A stretch of 64,000 bases of DNA, from positions 96,001-160,000 of the IMG/VR virus record IMGVR_UViG_3300009082_000016, one strand, 5' to 3'. Positions 2,490-64,000 of the stretch are shown here, piece after piece. Position numbers and translations under genes: made by a program. Under the pieces are notes generated by a model. It was not told where the DNA came from. It searched no databases and worked only from the letters and a program-made list of their open reading frames with translations. This DNA is from a virus. Position 1 is the first letter of the stretch. Each line of letters begins with the position of its first letter.

Positions 2490-3010
2490 CAGTCGCTCCC
2501 TTCCAGCCGGATGGCGGCAGTGACTTCGCCGATGCTACCCCCGCGCCGCGGGCCGGCGCAGAGGAAGAGGGTGCCCTCCTCCAACTCCGCGTCCGCCACC
2601 ACCTCCCAGCCGAACGTCGTGCGCCCGTCCACGAGCCCACCCTCTCCCGGCCTGGGCAGCATGAGCAGCTCACACAGCTCGGCCTTCGAGTGGCAGAGGA
2701 AGTGGGTCGGGAACAGGCCGCTGCGATCGTAGAACGCCATCGCCACCATCAGCGCGTCGCGCCGGTTGGGGGCGGCGATGTGGCCCATGCCGAACCCCTG
2801 CCCGCCTGTGCGGATGCGCTCGAGCAGGTTGTCGCTGGGCAACGAGGGCATCGGCTCGAGCGGCGTGTCGTTCTCGATGCCGGTGCGGTGGACCTTCACC
2901 CTGCCGGGCTCGATCGAGATCCCGAACACCCCCTTCAGCTCCATCGCCCAGCGCACGATCACAAGGGCGTCGTCGATGCCGCGGTAGGGAACGTGGTCGC
3001 TGGTCGCCAC
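2489..3010 (-). CDS. hypothetical protein
   Basis: 173-aa ORF, coupled to next gene. Confidence 0.65.
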   Translation of the reverse strand: MATSDHVPYRGIDDALVIVRWAMELKGVFGISIEPGRVKVHRTGIENDTPLEPMPSLPSDNLLERIRTGGQGFGMGHIAAPNRRDALMVAMAFYDRSGLFPTHFLCHSKAELCELLMLPRPGEGGLVDGRTTFGWEVVADAELEEGTLFLCAGPRRGGSIGEVTAAIRLEGSD

Positions 3011-3020
3011 GGCTCCCCCC

Positions 3021-3305
3021 CTAGCGCGGGCGAACCGGGATGGGCTTCCCCACGAACCTGCCCGGCTTCAGGCTGAACACCATCGGCTTGCGCCCCATAC
3101 CCGGCCGCGGGTAGACGTAGGTGAACAGCTTGCGCTGCTTCACCATCTTCTTCACGTGCCGGCGGATCTTCTCCCGGCCGTACGGGGTGTTCATGCCCAG
3201 GTCCTCGGCGAGACCGATCGTCGTTCGCGTCCGACCGGCGCCCAGGGCCTTGACGATCATCTCGTCGTTCACGATGCGGGGAGTCCGCACCTGCTTCTTC
3301 TTCAC
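3021..3305 (-). CDS. basic winged-HTH-like DNA-binding protein
   Basis: TTIGLAEDLGM...IRRHVKKMVKQRKL followed by wing-like beta hairpin. Confidence 0.5.
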   Translation of the reverse strand: MKKKQVRTPRIVNDEMIVKALGAGRTRTTIGLAEDLGMNTPYGREKIRRHVKKMVKQRKLFTYVYPRPGMGRKPMVFSLKPGRFVGKPIPVRPR

Positions 3306-3697
3306 GCGGCACTCTCCTCGCCGACCATCGGCGCGTCATGGAAAATCTGCACCTTGGGGATCTCCTCGTCGACGAACAGGATGTCGTTCTCCTGCAAGAA
3401 CAGGTAGCCCTCGCCGACTTCCGCCTGCATGGCCTTCTGGGTGGCGGTGACCTCGTGGATGCGGACCACCTGGACCACGTCGCCCTCGGAGACGTCGTGC
3501 GGGATGACACGGTTCTTCCGGGTCATCCCGTAGCCCGTCGACACGATGACGGCGTAGTCCTCCGCCTGGATGTAGGTCTTCTGCGGCAGGTAGAGGGATC
3601 CCACCTTGTCGATGCGCGGGACCAGCTTCACCAGGATCCACTTCCCCAGCGCCCTCACGGGCGGGGCGTGGATGACGCTCGGGATGCGGCTGTCCAT
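3302..3697 (-). CDS. groES: co-chaperonin GroES-like protein
   Basis: VRALGKWILVK...GSLYLP...AVIVSTGYG...DVSEGDVV...YLFLQENDIL matches Cpn10 pattern. Confidence 0.8.
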   Translation of the reverse strand: MDSRIPSVIHAPPVRALGKWILVKLVPRIDKVGSLYLPQKTYIQAEDYAVIVSTGYGMTRKNRVIPHDVSEGDVVQVVRIHEVTATQKAMQAEVGEGYLFLQENDILFVDEEIPKVQIFHDAPMVGEESAA

Positions 3698-4021
3698 CTA
3701 CCGACCCTTCAACTTCGCCGGGATGCCGGGGTTGGGCCGGGGCGCGTCCGAGGGCGACTCGGTGCCGGGCACCGGAACCTGCCCGGGCTCCAGCAGGTCG
3801 GGCGCCACGCGCCGGATGAACTCCGTCTCCAGCTCCTTCGGCAACGTGCCGAACGCGGAGCCGCCGCTCTGCGCCTTCTCGACCCGGCTCTTGGAGATGA
3901 CGATCACCCGCCTGAGCGCCGGCACGAGCCCCAGCGTCGCGATCTGATCGCCCTCCTGGTCGTCCGAGACCGTGGCGTAGAACACTTTCACGTCGAACAG
4001 CTTCCCGAGCTTCATGGCCAT
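3698..4021 (-). CDS. hypothetical protein
   Basis: 107-aa ORF abutting GroES. Confidence 0.6.
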   Translation of the reverse strand: MAMKLGKLFDVKVFYATVSDDQEGDQIATLGLVPALRRVIVISKSRVEKAQSGGSAFGTLPKELETEFIRRVAPDLLEPGQVPVPGTESPSDAPRPNPGIPAKLKGR

Positions 4022-4067
4022 CGTGGGCCTCCTTTCGATCGCCCTCTATCGGGGTCGCATCGAAATG

Positions 4068-4472
4068 TCACTCGTCGTCGTCGGCGCTCGGCCCGAACCC
4101 GTCCTCGTCCACGTCCGTCTCGTCGGGCTCCGGGTCGGCGGGCGCCCCGCCCCGACTGCCAGCCGCCGCCATGGCCCGATCGACGTAGGTCGCCTCGGGC
4201 GGGGAGGCGGGCTCGGGATCGGCGACCGACCCGTCCGGCTCGGGGGCCAGCCCGTCCAGGACGCGGTCGAAACCGGGCGGGACGCCCTGCCCGTCCAGCC
4301 TGGCCGGCTGCTGAAGGACACCGCCGACCGCCGCCCAGACGGCGTCGAACGACTCCTTGGTGAGCTGGGCCTCGATGATGCCCCCGCTGTCCAGCTTCAG
4401 GAAGGCCACGTGGACCACGTTGCCCGTCGCCACGTCCCGGTGAACACCCAGTTCGACGACCTCGAGTCGCAT
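4068..4472 (-). CDS. hypothetical protein, acidic tail
   Basis: Start MRLEVV preceded by GGAGG. Confidence 0.6.
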   Translation of the reverse strand: MRLEVVELGVHRDVATGNVVHVAFLKLDSGGIIEAQLTKESFDAVWAAVGGVLQQPARLDGQGVPPGFDRVLDGLAPEPDGSVADPEPASPPEATYVDRAMAAAGSRGGAPADPEPDETDVDEDGFGPSADDDE

Positions 4473-4474
4473 CC

Positions 4475-4801
4475 CTACCTCCCCGGCCTCGGACGGGCCG
4501 AATCCTCGAACCGCTTCTCCAGCACGATCCGGATCTGCTTCAGTTCGGAGGCGATGACCTGCGCGGCCTGCTCCAGGGGCGTGGCCTCCGGCGTCTCCGG
4601 CTTCGGCAACTCCGGCGTGGCCGTCTCCGTCTCCACGAGCCCGAACGCCTCCTCCAGCTTGGCCATGCACTCCCCGAACGTCTTCAGCGTCTTGCGGACG
4701 TTGTCCCGGGTGTCCGTGCTGAACAAGACCCGCACCTGGGCGTACGAACGTCGCAACTCCTCGAGGGCTTCCTCAGCCTTCGTCGGGTCCTTCACCACCA
4801 T
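4475..4801 (-). CDS. coiled-coil hypothetical protein
   Basis: Start MVVKDPT after GAGGAGG. Confidence 0.55.
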   Translation of the reverse strand: MVVKDPTKAEEALEELRRSYAQVRVLFSTDTRDNVRKTLKTFGECMAKLEEAFGLVETETATPELPKPETPEATPLEQAAQVIASELKQIRIVLEKRFEDSARPRPGR

Positions 4802-18128: not shown

Positions 18129-18701
18129 CTACCACTTCTTCCGGGGATCGGCCTTGAGGCCCGTCATCCCGAAGATTCCGTGGGCCTGCACCGTTTGCGG
18201 ACACCAGCGGGTACTGCCCGGTGCCCCAATCGAATCGATCTGCTGGGTGTGGAGCACCCAATGCTGTTCCAGACGCTCGGCGGACACCGTAGTTCTGCAT
18301 CGCACACAGCAACACGGCCGCATCAAGGTAACCGGCGTCAACAGCTGATGCAACCCGGCGTTGTAGAACTCCTGACTGGAGTGCCGAAGTTCCTTGTCGA
18401 TCCCGTCCGACAGGCCCTTTCTTGCCGCCGCCAACGACGCCTCCCCGTCGTCTCTCCCCCCCGTGCGAGCTCCGGAAGTCAGCCCACTTCTTCTTGCCGC
18501 CCAGACGGACAGCAGCTGCAGTCTTCCTACCGCTCGACGCGCAACGACGGCATAGCGACCAGCCCTGCTAAACCTGGTCGCCTCGCGACAGCACCACTCC
18601 ACGGCCGACACGGACCCGTAAACCGTTTCCACCATCGTGTCCGCCGACAGCTGCTGGGTCACCTGCACCAGTCCGTCCTCCCTGGCTTCCTCCGGAGTCA
18701 T
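18129..18701 (-). CDS. hypothetical protein
   Basis: 190-aa ORF, atypical codon usage. Confidence 0.4.
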   Translation of the reverse strand: MTPEEAREDGLVQVTQQLSADTMVETVYGSVSAVEWCCREATRFSRAGRYAVVARRAVGRLQLLSVWAARRSGLTSGARTGGRDDGEASLAAARKGLSDGIDKELRHSSQEFYNAGLHQLLTPVTLMRPCCCVRCRTTVSAERLEQHWVLHTQQIDSIGAPGSTRWCPQTVQAHGIFGMTGLKADPRKKW

Positions 18702-18705
18702 GCTC

Positions 18706-19068
18706 TCACCAGGGCTTCCCGGAGCGGCACACCTTCCTTCTATCCCACGGGCGCATGCCGGGCAAGAACTCGGCCCAGGCCACCCGCGGCGGCGCCACGT
18801 GCTTCATGTCGAATGGCGCCTTGCCGATGCGCCGGTCGACCTGCCGCAGGATGCGGGCGATCGTCTCGCGGCTGACGCCCACCATCCGCGCCACCCGACT
18901 CGCCGTCAAGCCGAACATGTAGACGGTGCGGAACACGAACTGCTCCCGCGGCGGCATCGAACAGAGCGCGGCGCAGAGCCCCACCTGGAACTCGAGGGGC
19001 ATGTTCTGGACCCACGGGGCGAGGGAACCACGCCGGCCGCGCTGCTTGGCGCCAAACATGTTCGTCAT
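18706..19068 (-). CDS. sigma-70 region-4-like HTH protein
   Basis: ALCSMPPREQFVF....FGLTASRVARMVGVSRETIARILRQ. Confidence 0.7.
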   Translation of the reverse strand: MTNMFGAKQRGRRGSLAPWVQNMPLEFQVGLCAALCSMPPREQFVFRTVYMFGLTASRVARMVGVSRETIARILRQVDRRIGKAPFDMKHVAPPRVAWAEFLPGMRPWDRRKVCRSGKPW

Positions 19069-19430
19069 CCTCCACCTGCCAGCTTCTTCCCCTCTTCGCA
19101 GTCGCAGAGGATGTCGTTGGAGATGTGCCCCGTGTCGAGGCACTTCTCGCACTCCATGATCAGGAACTCCTTCCGGCCCCTCACGTCGGCGAGGTAGTCG
19201 GTGACCGCGTCCAGGAAGTTGGTCAGCCCCTCCATGCAGTCGTCATCGTCCTTGCTGAACTGGATCAGCTCCGGCCCCGGCGTCCCGTACTCCACGCCCC
19301 GGGCCATCTGGGCGCGGCGGAACCGGCCCGATAGCTCCAGCAGGCAGAGCCGCTGCTTCTTCCAGAGCTCAGGGTCGAGCTTCTTGAGAATGTCCTCGAT
19401 GGTCGCGAATCCAAGATCTCCACAAGCCAT
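19065..19430 (-). CDS. hypothetical protein
   Basis: 121-aa ORF with AAAGGAG SD; C-terminal CxxC..CxC. Confidence 0.6.
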   Translation of the reverse strand: MACGDLGFATIEDILKKLDPELWKKQRLCLLELSGRFRRAQMARGVEYGTPGPELIQFSKDDDDCMEGLTNFLDAVTDYLADVRGRKEFLIMECEKCLDTGHISNDILCDCEEGKKLAGGG

Positions 19431-19448
19431 GTGCTTCTCCTTTCCTAT

Positions 19449-19892
19449 GGTGGCTTCCAGCAGGGACCGGCCGAAGCCGATCCCTGCGACCTGGTGGCGT
19501 CAGTCAGAGGCTAGTCCGATTCCTGTCGCAGCTAGCCGTAACGATCCAGGGCATGCCGGAGTCCCACGTCAGCGGGCCCCTGCTGGAAACCACCTTCTGG
19601 ATCACAGGAGGGACCGGCCGAAGCCGATCCCGCATCCGAGACGCTAACCTTGCTAGCACGGCCACGCCTAAACGTGACTAGTGGAGCCCGTACCAGCCTT
19701 GCCGGAGTCCCACGTCAGCGGGCCCCTCCTGTGATCCAGAACGTCCCCTCCCCGAGGGACCGGCCGAGGTCTAAACCACGGTCGGTCCCGCGGGCTTGCC
19801 GGAACTAGGCGGGCCACACCTGCCCTTGCCTTGTTGAGGCCTTCCCCGAGATGCCGGAGTCCCGCATCAGCGGGCCCCTCGGGGAGGGGACG
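19449..19892 (-). ncRNA. array of three structured RNA units (19449-19594, 19595-19741, 19742-19892), putative guide RNAs for the adjacent RAMP-like protein
   Basis: Each unit has a unit-specific ~14-17 bp closing inverted repeat, conserved GGGGCCCGCTGAYGYGGGACTCC, a 66-73 nt variable pentamer-periodic core and a GGGAYCG...CGGTCCC hairpin (cUUCGg loop in two units); G-U wobbles favour the minus strand. Confidence 0.8.
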
Positions 19893-19897
19893 TCGAT

Positions 19898-20530
19898 CTA
19901 CGCGGCCTCTTCCAGGATCCTGTTGAGCCGGTTCCGGATCCGCGTGAGCGCGGTGCGAAGCACGGGCAGCACCGTTCCCAGGAGCTCGGCCGCCCTGCGG
20001 TTGTTCTCGTACTTGTTGAGCAGGCCCTCGATGTCGTCGATGATCTCCCGGAGAAGGAGGGTGCCGGTGTTCCGCCTGCGGAGCCGTTCCACCGTGTGCT
20101 GGTAGGACTTCTTGCTCGTGGCCGAGGTCCGAACCGACACATTGCCGGTGACGACAATCTGGACCTTCTTGATCTTCACGACCCAGGCATAGCCCCGGGC
20201 CATGAGCCGCGCTTCCTGCTTCCACTGCTTCTCGGCCGCCTCGCTCCGGTTGGCCGTGAAGCCGACGGAGAGGTTCTCCTTCACCCACGCGGGGACGGGC
20301 TCACCATCGAATCGGCCGTCGCGCCAGGCCGCCACGATGTGGTCGGTCTCGACGGATCCGTTCGCCTGGGTGTTCAACCAGTCGATCGCCCTTCCGTAGA
20401 GCATAGCCTGCGCGTCGGTGTACACCGGCGTCCGTGACTGGTAACCGACGAGCGTCGCCCCTTCCGGCAGCTGGCCCGGCTGAACGACGTCCTCCTCGTA
20501 GCTGATGATCTCCTTCTTCTCCTGGGCCAT
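19898..20530 (-). CDS. partner protein of RAMP-like gene
   Basis: 210 aa; TGATG coupling to RAMP gene; AAEKQWKQEARLMAR motif; stop lies 5 nt before RNA array. Confidence 0.7.
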   Translation of the reverse strand: MAQEKKEIISYEEDVVQPGQLPEGATLVGYQSRTPVYTDAQAMLYGRAIDWLNTQANGSVETDHIVAAWRDGRFDGEPVPAWVKENLSVGFTANRSEAAEKQWKQEARLMARGYAWVVKIKKVQIVVTGNVSVRTSATSKKSYQHTVERLRRRNTGTLLLREIIDDIEGLLNKYENNRRAAELLGTVLPVLRTALTRIRNRLNRILEEAA

Positions 20531-21198
20531 CAGCCTTCCTTCACCAGGCGCTTCGCTCCGGCGATCGTGAAAACGCCGTTGGCCTCGTGGCATCCCCGTC
20601 CCGGGCGCCCCTGACCCAACCCGATGAACTGGCCGGCATGCTGCACGATGCTCGCCAGGAGATCGAGGCTGACGACGTCCGGCTTGTGGATGACCGTCAC
20701 CCTCGTGTACCACGGCGGATTGAAGTGTGGACGGTACACGGTGGCGGGGAAGTGGGTGCGCGTCTCCTCCTTCTTGTCCTTGTTCCCACGGAACACGATG
20801 TCCTTGCTGCACATCTCGATGTCCTCACAGATGATCGGGTACACCCCACTCGGCACGCGAAACAGCCGGATGTTCTCGGCCGGAAGGTGGAGGATCTCCG
20901 TCGCCGCCTGGACGAAGCATCCATGGAACGCACCCGAAGGGATCCCGAACGGGTGCTTCTTGTCCCCCGTCAGATGCAGGCAGCCCTTCGCCTCATCCTT
21001 CGGGTCCAGCTTGGCCGGCTTGGGAGGGTAGGGCTCTCCCTTGCCGCGCTCGCTCATCGCACGCATGAAATCGGCCAGGGCTGCCCGCGGCTTCCCCGGA
21101 ATGAAAGGGGCCTCTCCCACGAGATCGAAGGCGGTATACCAGAGCTCGAGGGGCTTCAACTTGATCTCCACCTCTTCGGCCTGCATCTTCTTCGTCAT
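20530..21198 (-). CDS. stand-alone RAMP/Cas7-like RNA-binding protein (Vipr-like)
   Basis: FDLVGEAPFI (beta1), FGIPSGAFHGCFVQAA (cf. IPGSSxKG), YRPHF..W, Gly-rich loop AGQFIGLGQGRPGRG...NGVF. Confidence 0.7.
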   Translation of the reverse strand: MTKKMQAEEVEIKLKPLELWYTAFDLVGEAPFIPGKPRAALADFMRAMSERGKGEPYPPKPAKLDPKDEAKGCLHLTGDKKHPFGIPSGAFHGCFVQAATEILHLPAENIRLFRVPSGVYPIICEDIEMCSKDIVFRGNKDKKEETRTHFPATVYRPHFNPPWYTRVTVIHKPDVVSLDLLASIVQHAGQFIGLGQGRPGRGCHEANGVFTIAGAKRLVKEG

Positions 21199-21206
21199 GT
21201 CCTCTC

Positions 21207-21491
21207 CTAGTCTTCGAGGTTGGCGATCCAGACGAGGCCATCCTCGAAGTGCTGCTCCCTCGCGATGCGGCAGATCTCCTGCCACACATCCTCGGGAATG
21301 CTGTCACGGTCCGACCCCTCTTCGTGGTCGAACGTAATGAACACGTCGCTGTACTCGCCTGGGACTTCGCCCTTCCGGTGCCACGTCGCGATCGGCTTGC
21401 CGGAGTTGAGCCAGTCCATGAAGTCCTTGCGCTGGTACCACTCGGAGGCGTCGATGCGGAGCACCCGCCCGACATACTTGAACACGGCCAT
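21207..21491 (-). CDS. hypothetical protein
   Basis: Start MAVFKY, TGATG coupled. Confidence 0.55.
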   Translation of the reverse strand: MAVFKYVGRVLRIDASEWYQRKDFMDWLNSGKPIATWHRKGEVPGEYSDVFITFDHEEGSDRDSIPEDVWQEICRIAREQHFEDGLVWIANLED

Positions 21492-21708
21492 CAGCGATCC
21501 TTCCCGTAGTACTCGAGGCACTCCTTGCACCGCAGGAACCCGGCATCGTCATCCTCCGGGTCGCCCTCGAGCACCGCGCCTCCCTGATCGATCTGGAAGG
21601 CACCGCAGACCGTGTCCTGGTCGTTGGACCCCTCGAACTCGCAGTCCTTGCCGCCGGCGCCGCAGTGCTTCCCCTCGAACCGGATGGTCCGCTTGGTCTC
21701 AATCTCCA

Positions 21709-22077
21709 TTAGCCCTCCTCATGCCACACCACCTTGATGCGGTATGTGGTCCCCTCAGGGGTCTCTGCCTCCAGGAAGGAAGGCCACCCATCGAGGGGCA
21801 CGGACTCGAAAATGAGCCGGCCGTCCAAGCTGATCTCGAAGGAGCCCCAGTAGTTGTGCTGACCCGAGCAGAGTTTGACGGACACGAAGGCCCCATCGTC
21901 CAACCTGACCGCCGGAGCCTCCCGGGTATCATCGTAGTACGCCCGGGTGCTCCCGTCCCTGGGGGCCGGACCCTTCCGCACCCCCTTCAGGTTCTCCGGG
22001 AACACGATGTCGATCAGCTTCTTCCAGGAACTCGGCAGGACAATCTCACCCCGAACGGGCTGGGTCTTCTTGCCCAT
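21709..22077 (-). CDS. hypothetical protein
   Basis: 122-aa ORF, coupled both sides. Confidence 0.6.
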   Translation of the reverse strand: MGKKTQPVRGEIVLPSSWKKLIDIVFPENLKGVRKGPAPRDGSTRAYYDDTREAPAVRLDDGAFVSVKLCSGQHNYWGSFEISLDGRLIFESVPLDGWPSFLEAETPEGTTYRIKVVWHEEG

Positions 22078-22736
22078 CAGCCCTCCTCCGCGTCGTCGTG
22101 GATGAAACCGGAGCCGGCCGCCATCCCCAGCGTCACGTGGGCGCCGGAGTCGACCATCGCCCGCATCGCCTGGCCGAGCTCGAAGCTGCGGCGCACGTTG
22201 GCCTTCGCCTTCTCCCGGTCAGGGCCGGGGGAGTGGAACGCGAGCCGGATGTCGACCTCGCCGCTCGTACAGCGAGCACAACAGGCGGGCATCTTCAGCG
22301 TCGGCTCCGGGATGACGTCCAGCAGGAACCAGACGTCGTCCAGGCCCATCCCGTTGAACCCCGCCATGATCAGGGACGAGCCGATGCACTTGAGCTGCGA
22401 CTCGCGGTCAGCCGGGGGGATCGGCGCGGGCTCGGTCCTGTCGACCTTCTTGCCCATCATCTCCTCGAAGTAGCTGTCGGCCATCGCGGCGCCCATCGCC
22501 ACGTTGTCCACCAGCTTCTGCTTCCCCTCGGCGATCGCCGCGGCGGCCTCGCTCTCCAGCTCCACCTCGCGCTCCGCACCGGCACCGTAGAGCACCACGG
22601 TGATCCCGGCGTCCGCCAGGACGCCCTCCCACCGGAGTCCGTCCCTGATGCCTTTCCGCTGGAAGTCGAAGCCACACAGGGCGGCGTGCTCCAGGATCGA
22701 CATCGCCCCCTGCGTCGGGTCCTTCTTCTCCACCAT
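22077..22736 (-). CDS. hypothetical protein
   Basis: 219-aa ORF, GGAGG SD. Confidence 0.6.
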   Translation of the reverse strand: MVEKKDPTQGAMSILEHAALCGFDFQRKGIRDGLRWEGVLADAGITVVLYGAGAEREVELESEAAAAIAEGKQKLVDNVAMGAAMADSYFEEMMGKKVDRTEPAPIPPADRESQLKCIGSSLIMAGFNGMGLDDVWFLLDVIPEPTLKMPACCARCTSGEVDIRLAFHSPGPDREKAKANVRRSFELGQAMRAMVDSGAHVTLGMAAGSGFIHDDAEEG

Positions 22737-34578: not shown

Positions 34579-34824
34579 CTGTTGTCCTATCGAAGGGTCT
34601 CTGTTGTCCTAGTCGGTGGGACCCTATTGTCCTAGTGGGGGTCCCTGTTGTCCTAGTGCCACGTTTTCGTGATCTTGGTAGGACAATAGGACCCCTCTGC
34701 GCCGAAATACAGAGGACTTACGCTTGGTTTACCCCACACAGACGATAGGACAATAGGGTCCCAGGGACTCTGTTGTCCTAGTGAGGGTCTCTATTGTCCT
34801 AGTCGGTGGGACCCTGTTGTCCTA
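34579..34824. repeat. nine copies of CTRTTGTCCTA (7 direct, 2 inverted), iteron-like; putative replication origin or parS
   Basis: Direct copies start at 34579, 34601, 34624, 34645, 34770, 34791, 34814; inverted at 34679, 34746; 21-23 bp spacing; non-coding, lower GC. Confidence 0.8.
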
Positions 34825-35205
34825 CCGGTGGAACGTCTCGAGGGTGGCCCGGACGTGCGCCCGGGTCAGTTTTGCCAGCTCGACGAACTGGAGCCGGCAG
34901 AAGCCGCACAGGTGGCTGTACTCGAGGTGCTCGTCCTCGCCGGCGGCTTTGAGGCTGATGCGGAAGCCGCCGCGCACCCGCCGGGCAGCGGTCGGCTCGT
35001 GGCAGCGGTCGCAGCGTGGGGTGTTCGAACGCACCCGGAAGAGGACGACCATCGGCTTCCCGTCGGGGCCGGCGATGACGTCCCTGGCCAGCAGTCCCTT
35101 CTTCACCATCTGCTGCGTCTGGCTGAGGATGACGGACGCCCCATCGAACATGCGACGGAAGCCGTCGATCTCGGGGGACGGTTCCCCTGGCTTTTTTCCT
35201 GCCAT
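34822..35205 (-). CDS. hypothetical Zn-finger protein
   Basis: CDRC...LCGFC; AAAGGAG SD. Confidence 0.6.
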   Translation of the reverse strand: MAGKKPGEPSPEIDGFRRMFDGASVILSQTQQMVKKGLLARDVIAGPDGKPMVVLFRVRSNTPRCDRCHEPTAARRVRGGFRISLKAAGEDEHLEYSHLCGFCRLQFVELAKLTRAHVRATLETFHR

Positions 35206-58795: not shown

Positions 58796-60265
58796 TCAGT
58801 ATCCGGGGGTCGGCTGAGTGGCCCCGCCCCACGCCGCACGGGAAACCCCCATGCGGGAACGGAACCGGTTGACGGCCCCGGCCTGGGCGGCGTTCATGAG
58901 CTCGCCGCCGGTGATGCTGGCATCGCCCATCGTGTTGCGCCGCGGCTTGACCCCGGGTGGCAGGTTCCGGGCCTGCTCCTGCTCGCGCCGCTGGAAGTAG
59001 CGGTGCGCCAGGAGTCCACCCAGGAGCAGGCCGCCACCGACCATGACGACCTTGCCCGGGCTGACTTTCATCGCGGCGAGACCGCCGCGGATGAGACCGC
59101 GCGGAACGTGCTTCGGGATGGTGACGGCCGCCTTCTCGAACGAGGCCTTCTTGGACTTCCCGATCAGGAGGTCCGACAGCCCCTTCTCGGCGTCGTGCAG
59201 GAGGTCGCCGGCGGCCGTTCCCTCGAGGTCCTTCGCGATCCGATCGACCGCGGCGCCCGTCGGGGAGCGCGGGAGGGACGCGTGGACTTCCTGGGCGACG
59301 CTGATCGCCTGTCCGAGATCGGGCGTCGCGGCCGTCTTGTGCATCGCCAGCTTGAGGGCGAGCGCCCCGTCCGAACGGGAACGCCGGCGGCCCGCGGCAA
59401 GCGCCGCGGTGACCTGCATCCCCGGCTGACCGCCCTGCTGCTGAGCCGCCATCTGCTGCATCACGGCCAGCTCCTGCGGACTCGGACCACCTTGCTGACC
59501 GCCCTGCTGCTGAGCCGCCATCTGCTGCATCATGGCCAGCTCCTGCGGACTCGGACCACCTTGCTGACCGCCCTGCTGACCGCCCTGCTGACCGCCCTGC
59601 TGACCGCCCTGCTGCTCCGGCCCGCCCGGCTGCTGGCCCTGCATCTGCATCTGCTGCATCTGCTGCATCTGCTGCATCTGCATCGCCTGAGCCTGCATCG
59701 CCTGCTGCGTCGGGTCCATCTCGATCGCCTGGAGCAGCTGCTGCTTGTACTGCTGCCAGGCCATCTCCTTCTGCTGCGCGGAGCGGGTCGCCGCGGCGGC
59801 CTCCATCTTCGCGCCGATCGCTTCCTGGCCGGCCTGCATGGCCTGCATGGTCGCCTGGCTGACCTGGGCGCCAAGTTGCTGCTGCATCTGCTGGGCCTGC
59901 TGCGTGACCTGCTGGGTCTGCGAAGCCGCCTGCCCAAGCTGCTGGACCTGCTGCTGCAGCTGCTGGATGACCTTCTGGGCTTCCTGGCCCGCCTGGGACG
60001 CCGACATCACCTCCCGCTGCAGGCCCTGGATTTCCGCCTGTTGCTGGGAGACGACCTGCCCCATGTCCCGCATGGCCGTGTCGCGCGGGTCGTCGACGAT
60101 CTCGTCGGTGACCAGACGCTCGCGCACCGCCCTGCTGATTGCGTCGTCCGGGCGGACGAGCTGCGCCGTCTTCGCGGCGGGGAGCAGGAACTTCTTGTAC
60201 CAGCCCGCCTTCTTGACCAGCGAAGGCTGCGGACCGAGTTTCCTCAGAAGCTCGTCGTGAGTCAT
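58796..60265 (-). CDS. Gln-rich coiled-coil putative virion/head protein
   Basis: Q-rich coiled coil, QQGG repeats, KxA motifs, C-terminal Gly-rich hydrophobic helix. Confidence 0.6.
   Translation of the reverse strand: MTHDELLRKLGPQPSLVKKAGWYKKFLLPAAKTAQLVRPDDAISRAVRERLVTDEIVDDPRDTAMRDMGQVVSQQQAEIQGLQREVMSASQAGQEAQKVIQQLQQQVQQLGQAASQTQQVTQQAQQMQQQLGAQVSQATMQAMQAGQEAIGAKMEAAAATRSAQQKEMAWQQYKQQLLQAIEMDPTQQAMQAQAMQMQQMQQMQQMQMQGQQPGGPEQQGGQQGGQQGGQQGGQQGGPSPQELAMMQQMAAQQQGGQQGGPSPQELAVMQQMAAQQQGGQPGMQVTAALAAGRRRSRSDGALALKLAMHKTAATPDLGQAISVAQEVHASLPRSPTGAAVDRIAKDLEGTAAGDLLHDAEKGLSDLLIGKSKKASFEKAAVTIPKHVPRGLIRGGLAAMKVSPGKVVMVGGGLLLGGLLAHRYFQRREQEQARNLPPGVKPRRNTMGDASITGGELMNAAQAGAVNRFRSRMGVSRAAWGGATQPTPGY
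59420..59700 (-). repeat. coding low-complexity repeats (QQGG; QQM; GPSPQELAxMQQMAAQQQGG x2)
   Basis: Visible 12-, 9- and ~60-bp tandem repeats. Confidence 0.85.
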
Positions 60266-62738: not shown

Positions 62739-64000
62739 CTAGAAGCGACCGATCACGGCCTCCAAGGTGGAGCCGGTGGTGGGCGTGAAGTCGAACTTCA
62801 CCGTGTCGGCAGCGTCGTTCATGTAGTACGTGCCCTGTCCACCACCAGTGCTGGCCGTCCGGAGCAGGCGCTGACCGTTGTAGTAGATGGCCAAGGACCC
62901 GCTGAACAGGGAGTCGTAGCCGATCTGGGCCGGAACCACGTCGAGGTCCCACGTCACGGTGGCCGCGGGCCAGCTGGTCACCGACACCTCCTCGAACTTC
63001 GTGATGTTGACGGACCACACCTCGGTGTCCGCCTTGTACGTGTACTGGGCGCCGTTGCCCCAGAACACGTTCACCAGCGTGAGAGCGCCGAAGGACGCGC
63101 TGACGGTGATCTGGTCCCCGTCGTCCGGCTGCTGGAAGCTCCAGTTGGTTCCGTCGTACCACCCGATCTCCTTCGCATGGCCGGAGAAGGTCCCGAGAGC
63201 CGTGGGGGCGATCATGGCCCGGAGACCGGTCGGGGGCTTGCCCGCTCCGGCCGTGCTGTACAGCTTCGTCCACGTTCCGCCCCCGATGGACCGGTACTGG
63301 TAGACGTCCCCGTCGGTGTAGCTGCCACCCCAGTTGTCGACGATGTAGCAGTAGCCGTTGAGGGGGTTCGACGGGACGCTGCCACCCTGATCGGCGTCCG
63401 TGGTCAGCAGAACGATGTGAACCGGCGGGTGCCACGGGAACGTCTCGTCGACGTTCACGCCGGCGGCGTTCACCTTGATGTAGTTGCCCGGCTTGACCTC
63501 CAGCGACGTACCGTCGATGGTGAGGCCGTCGGCGTACTTCACGTACACGCCGTTCGAGTCGATCTCGAGGCCGCCCTCGTTCTTCACGAGGACCTTGAGT
63601 CCGGCGTACGCCCCGGACACCTCGGCGATCTCCAAGCCACCATCGGTCTGCAGGAGGGGGGAGGCGGTCCACGTCGCGCCGGCGTAGACGTACTCGATCC
63701 CCGTACCGTACGAGGACGAGATGATGACCCCATCGCCCGACGACGGCACGACCGCGATCCAGTAGCTCGGGTCGTTGGTGTTGCTCGTGGTGACGGTCAT
63801 GATCTGCTTCTGGTACGGAGCGAACTCGTCGGCGGCGTTCGGGTGGACCACGAAACGGGTCCCATAGGCCGCGTAGCCACCGCTGCCCGGCACCAGCACG
63901 GACCAAGTGGTCCCCGTCCAGATGACGAAGTCCCCGGCGTTGACCGCCACACCGCCCCACGTACCGTTGGCCGTGGCGAGGTAGGTGACTCCCGTCACGG
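62739..64000 (-). CDS. putative fibre/head-decoration protein, DUF2793-like repeats (5'-truncated)
   Basis: TFSGHAKEIGWYDGTNWSF..P..G and GDFVIWTGTTW motifs; runs off window edge. Confidence 0.6.
   Translation of the reverse strand, partial: VTGVTYLATANGTWGGVAVNAGDFVIWTGTTWSVLVPGSGGYAAYGTRFVVHPNAADEFAPYQKQIMTVTTSNTNDPSYWIAVVPSSGDGVIISSSYGTGIEYVYAGATWTASPLLQTDGGLEIAEVSGAYAGLKVLVKNEGGLEIDSNGVYVKYADGLTIDGTSLEVKPGNYIKVNAAGVNVDETFPWHPPVHIVLLTTDADQGGSVPSNPLNGYCYIVDNWGGSYTDGDVYQYRSIGGGTWTKLYSTAGAGKPPTGLRAMIAPTALGTFSGHAKEIGWYDGTNWSFQQPDDGDQITVSASFGALTLVNVFWGNGAQYTYKADTEVWSVNITKFEEVSVTSWPAATVTWDLDVVPAQIGYDSLFSGSLAIYYNGQRLLRTASTGGGQGTYYMNDAADTVKFDFTPTTGSTLEAVIGRF

What the first reader, a model, noticed from the sequence alone, without database searches (positions are those of the whole stretch)
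19449..21198. Phage RAMP/Cas7-like gene plus partner gene plus three-unit structured RNA array: candidate non-CRISPR RNA-guided system
Seen: two coupled genes are followed 5 nt after the second stop by three abutting 146/147/151-nt units, with no cas1/cas2/cas6 or canonical CRISPR repeats in the window. On the minus strand each unit has a unit-specific closing stem, a conserved 5' hairpin (CCCGC-UGAY-GYGGG), a variable core and a conserved 3' hairpin. Knowledge: the 222-aa protein carries the RAMP/Cas7 hallmarks (beta1 G..PF, IPSxAxxG helix, C-terminal Gly-rich loop GLGQGRPG...GVF). Inference: the protein polymerises on excised units that act as programmable guides, e.g. for repression or inter-phage competition. 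From memory this resembles recently reported phage VIPR systems (RAMP protein plus GGY-NN RNAs); that link is unverified. The stem-enclosed three-way-junction layout and degenerate pentamers could mark a distinct subtype.
Basis: partly seen in the sequence, partly recalled or inferred. Interest (0 to 1): 0.95.

Follow-up and report, generated by a model that had tools for sequence, protein, structure and literature searches.

The report
Phage VIPR locus with stem-enclosed guides
A 173-kb uncultured high-GC phage carries a VIPR system (a CRISPR-like RNA-guided DNA silencer first described in 2026), but its three guide RNAs are each wrapped in their own closing helix with a conserved hairpin at both ends, a layout not seen in the relatives examined here.

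Summary

Three things are unusual:
- Each unit is enclosed by a unit-specific closing stem of 14-17 bp (11 of 14 pairs covary) and carries conserved 5' and 3' hairpins.
- The units abut inside an operon, with no room for promoters between them.
- The partner gene is an orphan.

I read the stems as processing and insulation signals, which is inferred rather than shown. No target was found in the phage itself or in public collections.

VIPR has been in preprints since April 2026, and this scan has already noted VIPR loci in more than 200 other genomes. This locus is therefore a new variant of a known kind, not a new system.

The parts
20530..21198 (-). vipr gene: 222-aa minimal RAMP protein (single RRM core, beta-hairpin thumb at about residues 127-159, G-loop 193-209)
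19898..20530 (-). Partner gene in the vap position: 210 aa, translationally coupled to gene A (TGATG), orphan
   Evidence: for position. No Pfam, PHROG, PADLOC, NCBIfam or PDB hit. No homologue in the word-indexed search of 5.8 billion proteins. No similarity to SUSP1 vap1. Weak collinear hhalign match to the phrog_15946-type partner family of other Vipr loci (E 0.0032, probability 10%).
19741..19893 (-). vrRNA unit 1: closing stem 17 bp, 5' hairpin 19878-19856, pentamer tract 19853-19789 (13 pentamers), longer 3' hairpin about 19789-19756
19596..19740 (-). vrRNA unit 2: closing stem 16 bp, 5' hairpin 19726-19704, pentamer tract 19701-19632 (14 pentamers), 3' hairpin with UUCG loop 19631-19610
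19449..19594 (-). vrRNA unit 3: closing stem 16 bp (one G-U), 5' hairpin 19580-19558, pentamer tract 19555-19485 (14 pentamers plus 1 inserted nt after pentamer 8), 3' hairpin with UUCG loop 19484-19463
19065..19430 (-). Downstream 121-aa gene. Its Shine-Dalgarno (AGGAAAGGAG) lies just after unit 3, which places the array inside a longer minus-strand transcription unit. Membership in the system is not shown.
   Evidence: No sigma-70-like promoter or intrinsic terminator on the minus strand in 18500-22500.

Best explanation
This is a VIPR system: a vipr gene, a vap-position partner gene and a three-guide vrRNA array, carried by a complete 172.7-kb, 66% GC uncultured phage.

Proposed mechanism:
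1. The two genes and the array are transcribed on the minus strand as part of a long operon.
2. Each unit folds on its own. Its unit-specific 14-17-bp closing helix pairs the unit's own 5' and 3' ends, which keeps the near-identical handles of neighbouring units from mispairing.
3. The helix, extended by the mutually complementary conserved handles to about 26 bp, probably serves as a double-strand endonuclease site (host RNase III is the obvious candidate) that excises the units.
4. Vipr protomers then polymerise one per pentamer along the 13-14 Y-N-N-G-n repeats between the 5' hairpin and the 3' hairpin. They hold the fixed G-n-Y letters and present the 26-28 variable NN letters.
5. As in SUSP1, the filament would read double-stranded DNA with one skipped base per two read, and silence a competitor element or a host gene.

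Shown here: family membership, RAMP fold, the in-phase pentamer code, the covarying stems, and the absence of CRISPR parts.

Inferred: transcription, excision, RNP formation, the skip rule, and the target.
For: - Vipr family: the single-sequence search found 54 distant homologues. The profile hits SUSP1 Vipr in the PDB at E 4.4e-16 over nearly full length. A profile lacking the window protein scores both the window protein (123 bits) and SUSP1 Vipr (62 bits). The thumb Arg (R138 to R156) and G-loop Arg (R179 to R198) are conserved.
- Guide code: period 5 is the strongest period in each core (z 3.3, 3.7 and 4.3). Across 41 pentamers in one register from the conserved anchor, Y is 80% at position 1, G 76% at position 4, and positions 2-3 are near-uniform; chi-square 77.4, p 1.3e-11. 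The two strongest 60-nt period-5 windows of the whole genome lie in the array.
- Homologue loci: Cy-LDV1, two IMG/VR contigs, Gordonia phage Ecliptus, Mycobacterium phage BobaPhett and SUSP1 all have GGY/NN tracts next to vipr.
- Stems and minus-strand RNA.
- Need for processing: the units abut and there is no promoter-like site between them.
- Geometry: the published filament has a pitch of about 66-72 Angstrom per 5-6 protomers. A 14-mer would therefore be about 170-180 Angstrom long, and its ends cannot stay joined by a closed stem.
Against: - No RNA data exist for this uncultured phage.
- Only 27% of pentamers are full YNNGG, and the second G is only 46%.
- Residues that read the two G's in SUSP1 are not kept: H17 to G35, D177 to Q196, W178 to G197.
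- No target was found under skip rules 0-3 in the phage itself, or by exact xNN scans of viral, genome and metagenome collections. The hits were chance-level and in low-GC DNA.
- The period-5 signal exceeds the genome background only modestly in any single window (3.78 against 3.44).
- The phage encodes no RNase III, and the host is unknown.
- There are no close relatives, so stem covariation rests on three paralogous units only.
- I could not see the figures or data tables of the VIPR paper, so one of its seven types may already include this layout.
Confidence: 0.8

Rival explanations
1. It is a VIPR locus, but the closing stems are not processing sites. They stay in the mature RNA as a structural clamp or folding insulator, or as a gate that holds the guide closed until Vipr or the partner protein opens it. 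The unit ends would then be made by another nuclease.
For: The MFE model keeps the stems together with both hairpins. Unit-specific arms would prevent cross-unit pairing of the complementary conserved handles. No RNase III gene is in the phage.
Against: From the published pitch, a 13-14-protomer filament is far longer than two 9-bp hairpins can bridge, so the stem must open or be cut. Abutting units still need some endonuclease.
Confidence: 0.3
2. The three units are structured non-coding RNAs that work independently of the RAMP protein (for example decoys, regulatory sRNAs or scaffold RNAs), and the 5-nt periodicity is incidental.
For: The pentamers are degenerate (27% YNNGG). Other genomic windows come close in period-5 power. 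No target was found.
Against: The same phase relative to the conserved anchor holds in all three units, with p 1e-11. The array sits 4 nt after a Vipr operon. Most examined Vipr homologues have a pentamer tract beside the gene. There is no Rfam family match.
Confidence: 0.05
3. The inverted repeats act at the DNA level, as cassette boundaries for recombination or exchange of guide modules, rather than as RNA helices.
For: Each module is bounded by its own inverted repeat. Both strands fold with z about -8. Stems and cores are diverse next to identical handles, which looks modular.
Against: G-U pairs occur in the stem of unit 3 and in both conserved hairpins. These would be A-C mismatches on the other strand. 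The minus strand is 31 kcal/mol more stable, and C(UUCG)G tetraloops appear only on the minus strand. No recombinase lies next to the locus.
Confidence: 0.05

Closest known systems
Type II VIPR of Escherichia phage SUSP1 (Vipr + vap1 + four vrRNAs; bioRxiv 10.64898/2026.04.26.720920 and .720927; PDB 36pp)
   Same: Same protein family by profile, the same RAMP fold, and conserved thumb Arg and G-loop Arg. A two-gene operon is followed by a three-guide array on a phage genome. The guides have 13-14 pentamers (published range 9-16) followed by a conserved 3' structured tail. No cas genes or CRISPR array.
   Different: Direct pairwise similarity is not significant. The partner gene is unrelated to vap1. 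SUSP1 guides are strict GGT/NN, each is preceded by an AT-rich spacer, and they have no 5' hairpin and no closing stem. Here the fixed letters are only G(76%)-n-Y(80%). The units abut and are each enclosed by a unique helix. The H17, D177 and W178 equivalents are G, Q and G.
VIPR arrays with staggered, hammerhead-interspersed or non-canonical pentamer layouts (figs S17-S19 of 10.64898/2026.04.26.720920; 21 non-canonical clusters in 10.64898/2026.10.21.760802)
   Same: These show that VIPR guide biogenesis and the fixed trinucleotide vary between types. Operon-linked arrays need a processing device. Degenerate or altered fixed letters are already reported.
   Different: There is no hammerhead or other Rfam ribozyme here. 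CUGAYG lies in a hairpin loop, and no GAA junction follows. There are no GGCAG-type staggered delimiters like those in Cy-LDV1, Ecliptus and L005. The stem-enclosed layout is not mentioned in the text of the papers I could read; their figures and data tables were not available.
CRISPR type III/VII Cas7 backbone subunits (Csm3, Cmr4)
   Different: 8-14% sequence identity. No Cas1 or CRISPR repeats in the complete phage genome, and no other cas gene recognised around the locus. The step is 5 nt, not 6.
RNase III excision of stable RNAs through helices formed by flanking sequences (rRNA precursor stems; tracrRNA:pre-crRNA duplexes in type II CRISPR). Established knowledge, cited from memory.
   Same: Long helices formed by the 5' and 3' flanks of an RNA embedded in a polycistronic precursor.
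   Different: This is only an analogy. No cleavage data exist, and the helix here is intramolecular and specific to each unit.

Membership tests
VIPR system | Vipr protein: sequence membership in the Vipr family | tested here: met
   Profile A2 against PDB sequences hits 36pp_D SUSP1 Vipr at E 4.4e-16, profile positions 22-202 of 212. A profile built without the window protein scores the window protein at 123 bits and SUSP1 Vipr at 62 bits. hhalign over the C-terminal G-loop region gives E 1.3e-15.
VIPR system | Adjacent vrRNA with at least 4 (typically 9-16) tandem pentamers YNNGG or a related consensus | tested here: met
   13, 14 and 14 in-phase pentamers. Y 80%, G 76%, second G 46%. Chi-square p 1.3e-11. 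The form is degenerate: only 27% are full YNNGG.
VIPR system | Conserved structured 3' tail after the repeat tract | tested here: met
   A conserved 3' hairpin ends in CGGCCGGUCCC in all three units, with a UUCG loop in units 2 and 3. No pseudoknot was tested.
VIPR system | Accessory vap gene of a described family (vap1-6) | tested here: inconclusive
   A coupled gene occupies the vap position. It has no similarity to SUSP1 vap1, no hit to any library, and only a weak hhalign match to the phrog_15946-type partner family (E 0.0032, probability 10%). Sequences of vap2-6 were not available.
VIPR system | Non-CRISPR context on a virus or provirus | tested here: met
   Complete virus record with direct terminal repeats. 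No Cas1. No CRISPR-like array.
VIPR system | vrRNA expressed and bound by Vipr; DNA recognised by the 1-nt-skip rule | not testable with these tools
   No RNA or binding data exist. Computational target searches under skip rules 0-3 found nothing above chance.
Hammerhead-interspersed vrRNA array (VIPR types I/V) | Hammerhead ribozyme between guides | tested here: not met
   Rfam search at E up to 10 over 19300-20000 found no ribozyme family. By inspection, CUGAYG sits in a hairpin loop and no GAA junction follows.
CRISPR-Cas | CRISPR repeat-spacer array and adaptation genes | tested here: not met
   No array and no Cas1 in the complete genome.

The most novel reading that the evidence does not exclude
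This locus represents a distinct VIPR subtype with these features:
- Guides are cut out of an operon-internal precursor through unit-specific closing helices, a host double-strand RNase route rather than own promoters, staggered cuts or ribozymes.
- Guides are capped at both ends by conserved hairpins.
- The fixed motif is relaxed to G-n-Y, read by a Vipr that lacks the SUSP1 G-reading residues.
- The system works with a new accessory protein.
Probability: 0.4. Interest if true: 0.65.

Novelty: new variant of a known kind. Interest (0 to 1): 0.5.

Why it matters
VIPR is a very recent addition to RNA-guided systems, and how its guides are made is barely described. This locus offers three things.

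- A guide enclosed by its own covarying helix, with a handle at each end, points to a further biogenesis route. It also suggests a natural design for packing several guides into one transcript without cross-folding, which is useful for multiplexed VIPR tools.
- The relaxed fixed letters, paired with a Vipr that has lost three of the SUSP1 G-contact residues, give a natural test case for how strictly the protein must read GGY.
- It extends VIPR to a large high-GC phage that, according to earlier unchecked notes of this scan, also carries its own RNA polymerase and sigma factor.

Tried and rejected
- **Single-sequence AF2 fold of gene A:** useless, pLDDT 37. It was replaced by a fold using 54 aligned homologues.
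- **Close relatives:** none found. The word-indexed search returned only the protein itself. Back-translated patterns and the 21-nt 5' handle have no match in IMG/VR.
- **Ribozyme, tRNA-like or known RNA family:** none.
- **Extra or solo guides elsewhere in the phage:** the 5' handle occurs only three times.
- **W178-to-G substitution as the cause of the weak second G:** rejected. Cy-LDV1 Vipr also has G there, as do 9 of 54 homologues, yet Cy-LDV1 uses strict GGC/NN.
- **Gene B as vap1 or a phrog_15946 member:** no, or inconclusive. The Atlas gave nothing usable.
- **Self-targeting or autoregulation:** the best matches under skip rules 0-2 equal the permuted-guide nulls.
- **Exact xNN scans of the collections:** full and partial guides returned either nothing or seed-only hits in 34-53% GC DNA that do not extend. 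The best was 22 of 28, and only under a post-hoc spacing.
- **Phage-encoded RNase III:** none.

Full report
**What is there**

On the minus strand, a 222-aa gene (21198-20530) follows the upstream gene after 8 nt and has a Shine-Dalgarno sequence. It overlaps a 210-aa gene (20530-19898) in a TGATG junction. Four nucleotides after that gene's stop codon, three abutting units begin (19893-19741, 19740-19596, 19594-19449). The Shine-Dalgarno of the next gene lies just after the last unit.

The units share a nearly invariant 5' block, GGGGCCCGCUGAYGYGGGACUCCGGCA, and a 3' block ending CGGCCGGUCCCU. Their cores and outermost arms differ.

The window lies in a complete 172,723-bp virus record with direct terminal repeats and 65.8% GC.

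**The protein is a Vipr**

- Pfam, NCBIfam and PADLOC give nothing. PHROGs gives phrog_4652 (unknown function) at E 4e-6.
- An exhaustive phmmer search of 1.84 billion representatives found 54 distant homologues of about 200 aa, at 24-35% identity.
- The profile of these homologues hits one solved structure, 36pp_D 'SUSP1 Vipr protein', at E 4.4e-16 over almost its whole length.
- I located that gene in phage SUSP1 (KT454805, 28474-29061).
- A profile built from the 53 homologues without the window protein scores the window protein at 123 bits and SUSP1 Vipr at 62 bits. Direct pairwise similarity between the two is not significant.
- With the alignment, AlphaFold gives pLDDT 91.8; the single-sequence model was useless.
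- Mapped onto the SUSP1 contacts described in bioRxiv 10.64898/2026.04.26.720927, the thumb Arg and the G-loop Arg are kept (R156, R198). The residues that read the two guanines are not: H17 to G35, D177 to Q196, W178 to G197.

**The units carry the VIPR code in a relaxed form**

- Period 5 is the strongest period in each variable core, with z 3.3, 3.7 and 4.3 against dinucleotide shuffles.
- Reading from the conserved ACUCCGG anchor, 41 pentamers show Y 80% at position 1, G 76% at position 4, G 46% at position 5, and near-uniform letters at positions 2-3. Chi-square is 77.4, p 1.3e-11. The other four registers lose the pattern.
- Unit 3 needs one inserted base after pentamer 8 to stay in register. 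I chose this after seeing the data.
- The two strongest 60-nt period-5 windows of the whole genome are in units 1 and 2, though the margin over background is modest.
- In comparison loci the vipr homologue is flanked by a pentamer tract. It is canonical GGY/NN in Cy-LDV1, L004, L005, Gordonia phage Ecliptus and SUSP1. Mycobacterium phage BobaPhett has a period-5 tract I did not read, and the AT-rich locus L006 has only a period-5 tract.
- The published definition allows 9-16 pentamers and related consensuses, and a second preprint reports non-canonical fixed letters. Degeneracy alone is therefore not new.

**What is unusual**

- Each unit is closed by its own 16-17-bp helix: 48 Watson-Crick pairs and 1 G-U out of 49.
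- In the alignment, 11 of 14 stem pairs change on both sides and every cell stays paired. No shuffle or slid control comes close.
- Inside the stem sit a conserved 9-bp 5' hairpin with a UGAY loop, then the pentamer tract, then a conserved 3' hairpin with a C(UUCG)G loop in units 2 and 3.
- G-U pairs in all three helices, and a 31 kcal/mol advantage, favour minus-strand RNA.
- The conserved 5' and 3' blocks are also complementary to each other. An alternative 26-27-bp imperfect helix is therefore possible.
- No comparison locus whose tract I read shows a closing stem or a 5' hairpin.
- The text of the VIPR papers names four layouts: tandem, staggered, hammerhead-interspersed and single-guide. 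There is no ribozyme here.

**Mechanism**

The units abut, and no promoter-like or terminator-like site lies on the minus strand in 18500-22500. This scan has a caveat: earlier unchecked notes say the phage has its own RNA polymerase and sigma factor. If the scan holds, the guides must be cut from a polycistronic transcript.

The published filament has one protomer per pentamer and a pitch of 66-72 Angstrom per 5-6 protomers. A 13-14-mer is therefore far too long for its ends to remain tied by the closing stem, so the stem must be cut or opened. My preferred reading has two parts:
- The unit-specific arms direct correct cis-pairing of each unit's handles.
- They create a double-strand RNase site; the host enzyme is the candidate, since the phage has no RNase III.

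This part is inference.

**Targets**

- Using the published rule (replace GGY by one wildcard), none of the three guides has a match in the phage genome above permuted-guide nulls.
- Exact scans of the viral, genome and metagenome collections with full or partial guides returned nothing, or only seed hits in low-GC DNA that fail to extend.
- Guides 1 and 2 share 58% of their NN letters; guide 3 shares about 25% with each. Guides 1 and 2 may read variants of one site.

**The partner gene**

Gene B is an orphan by every search and is unrelated to SUSP1 vap1. A profile of the partner family found next to other Vipr genes (phrog_15946) aligns collinearly with gene B, but only at E 0.0032 and probability 10%. 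That is inconclusive.

**Verdict**

This is a genuine VIPR locus. The class has been in print since April 2026, and this scan has already noted VIPR loci in more than 200 other genomes. It is therefore not a new kind of system.

The stem-enclosed, double-capped guide units, the relaxed fixed letters and the orphan partner make it a new variant worth a small-RNA and pull-down experiment.

Noticed in passing
window 19485-19853 (NN positions of the three guides): Guides 1 and 2 share 15 of 26 NN letters when aligned by pentamer index; guide 3 shares about 25% with either. The NN positions are about 55% A+T in a 66% GC genome.
   Followed up: partly
window 34579-34831: Two neighbouring clusters of 21-23-nt tandem repeats (consensus CTGTTGTCCTAGTCGGGGGTCC, about 3.6 and 3.1 copies). 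They look iteron-like and may be an origin or a protein-binding array.
   Followed up: no
window 59425-59681: A 69-nt unit repeated 2.2 times at 98% identity, followed by 12-nt (5 copies) and 9-nt (4 copies) tandem repeats.
   Followed up: no
window 19065-19430 (minus strand): A 121-aa gene starts just after the array and has a C-terminal Cys cluster (CEKC...CDC). It might belong to the system, but nothing ties it in.
   Followed up: no
L002 (Cyanophage Cy-LDV1, BK059895) 2977-4580: An unannotated VIPR locus next to cI and excisionase. g34 is a Vipr homologue and g33 is a phrog_15946-type partner. GGC/NN tracts lie in both intergenic regions, with GGCAGGC delimiters.
   Followed up: partly
L023 (Gordonia phage Ecliptus) 3080-3340; L024 (Mycobacterium phage BobaPhett) 2080-2330: Actinophage Vipr homologues are annotated as hypothetical proteins. 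In Ecliptus the canonical GGY/NN tract and the gene are inserted between the tail chaperone genes and the tape measure gene. In BobaPhett a period-5 tract (sequence not read) overlaps the small annotated ORF gp51. About 30 such phage records matched.
   Followed up: partly
window 63226-63300: A 75-nt window with the highest period-5 power in the genome at that window size (3.81). It is outside the VIPR locus and carries no handle motif.
   Followed up: no
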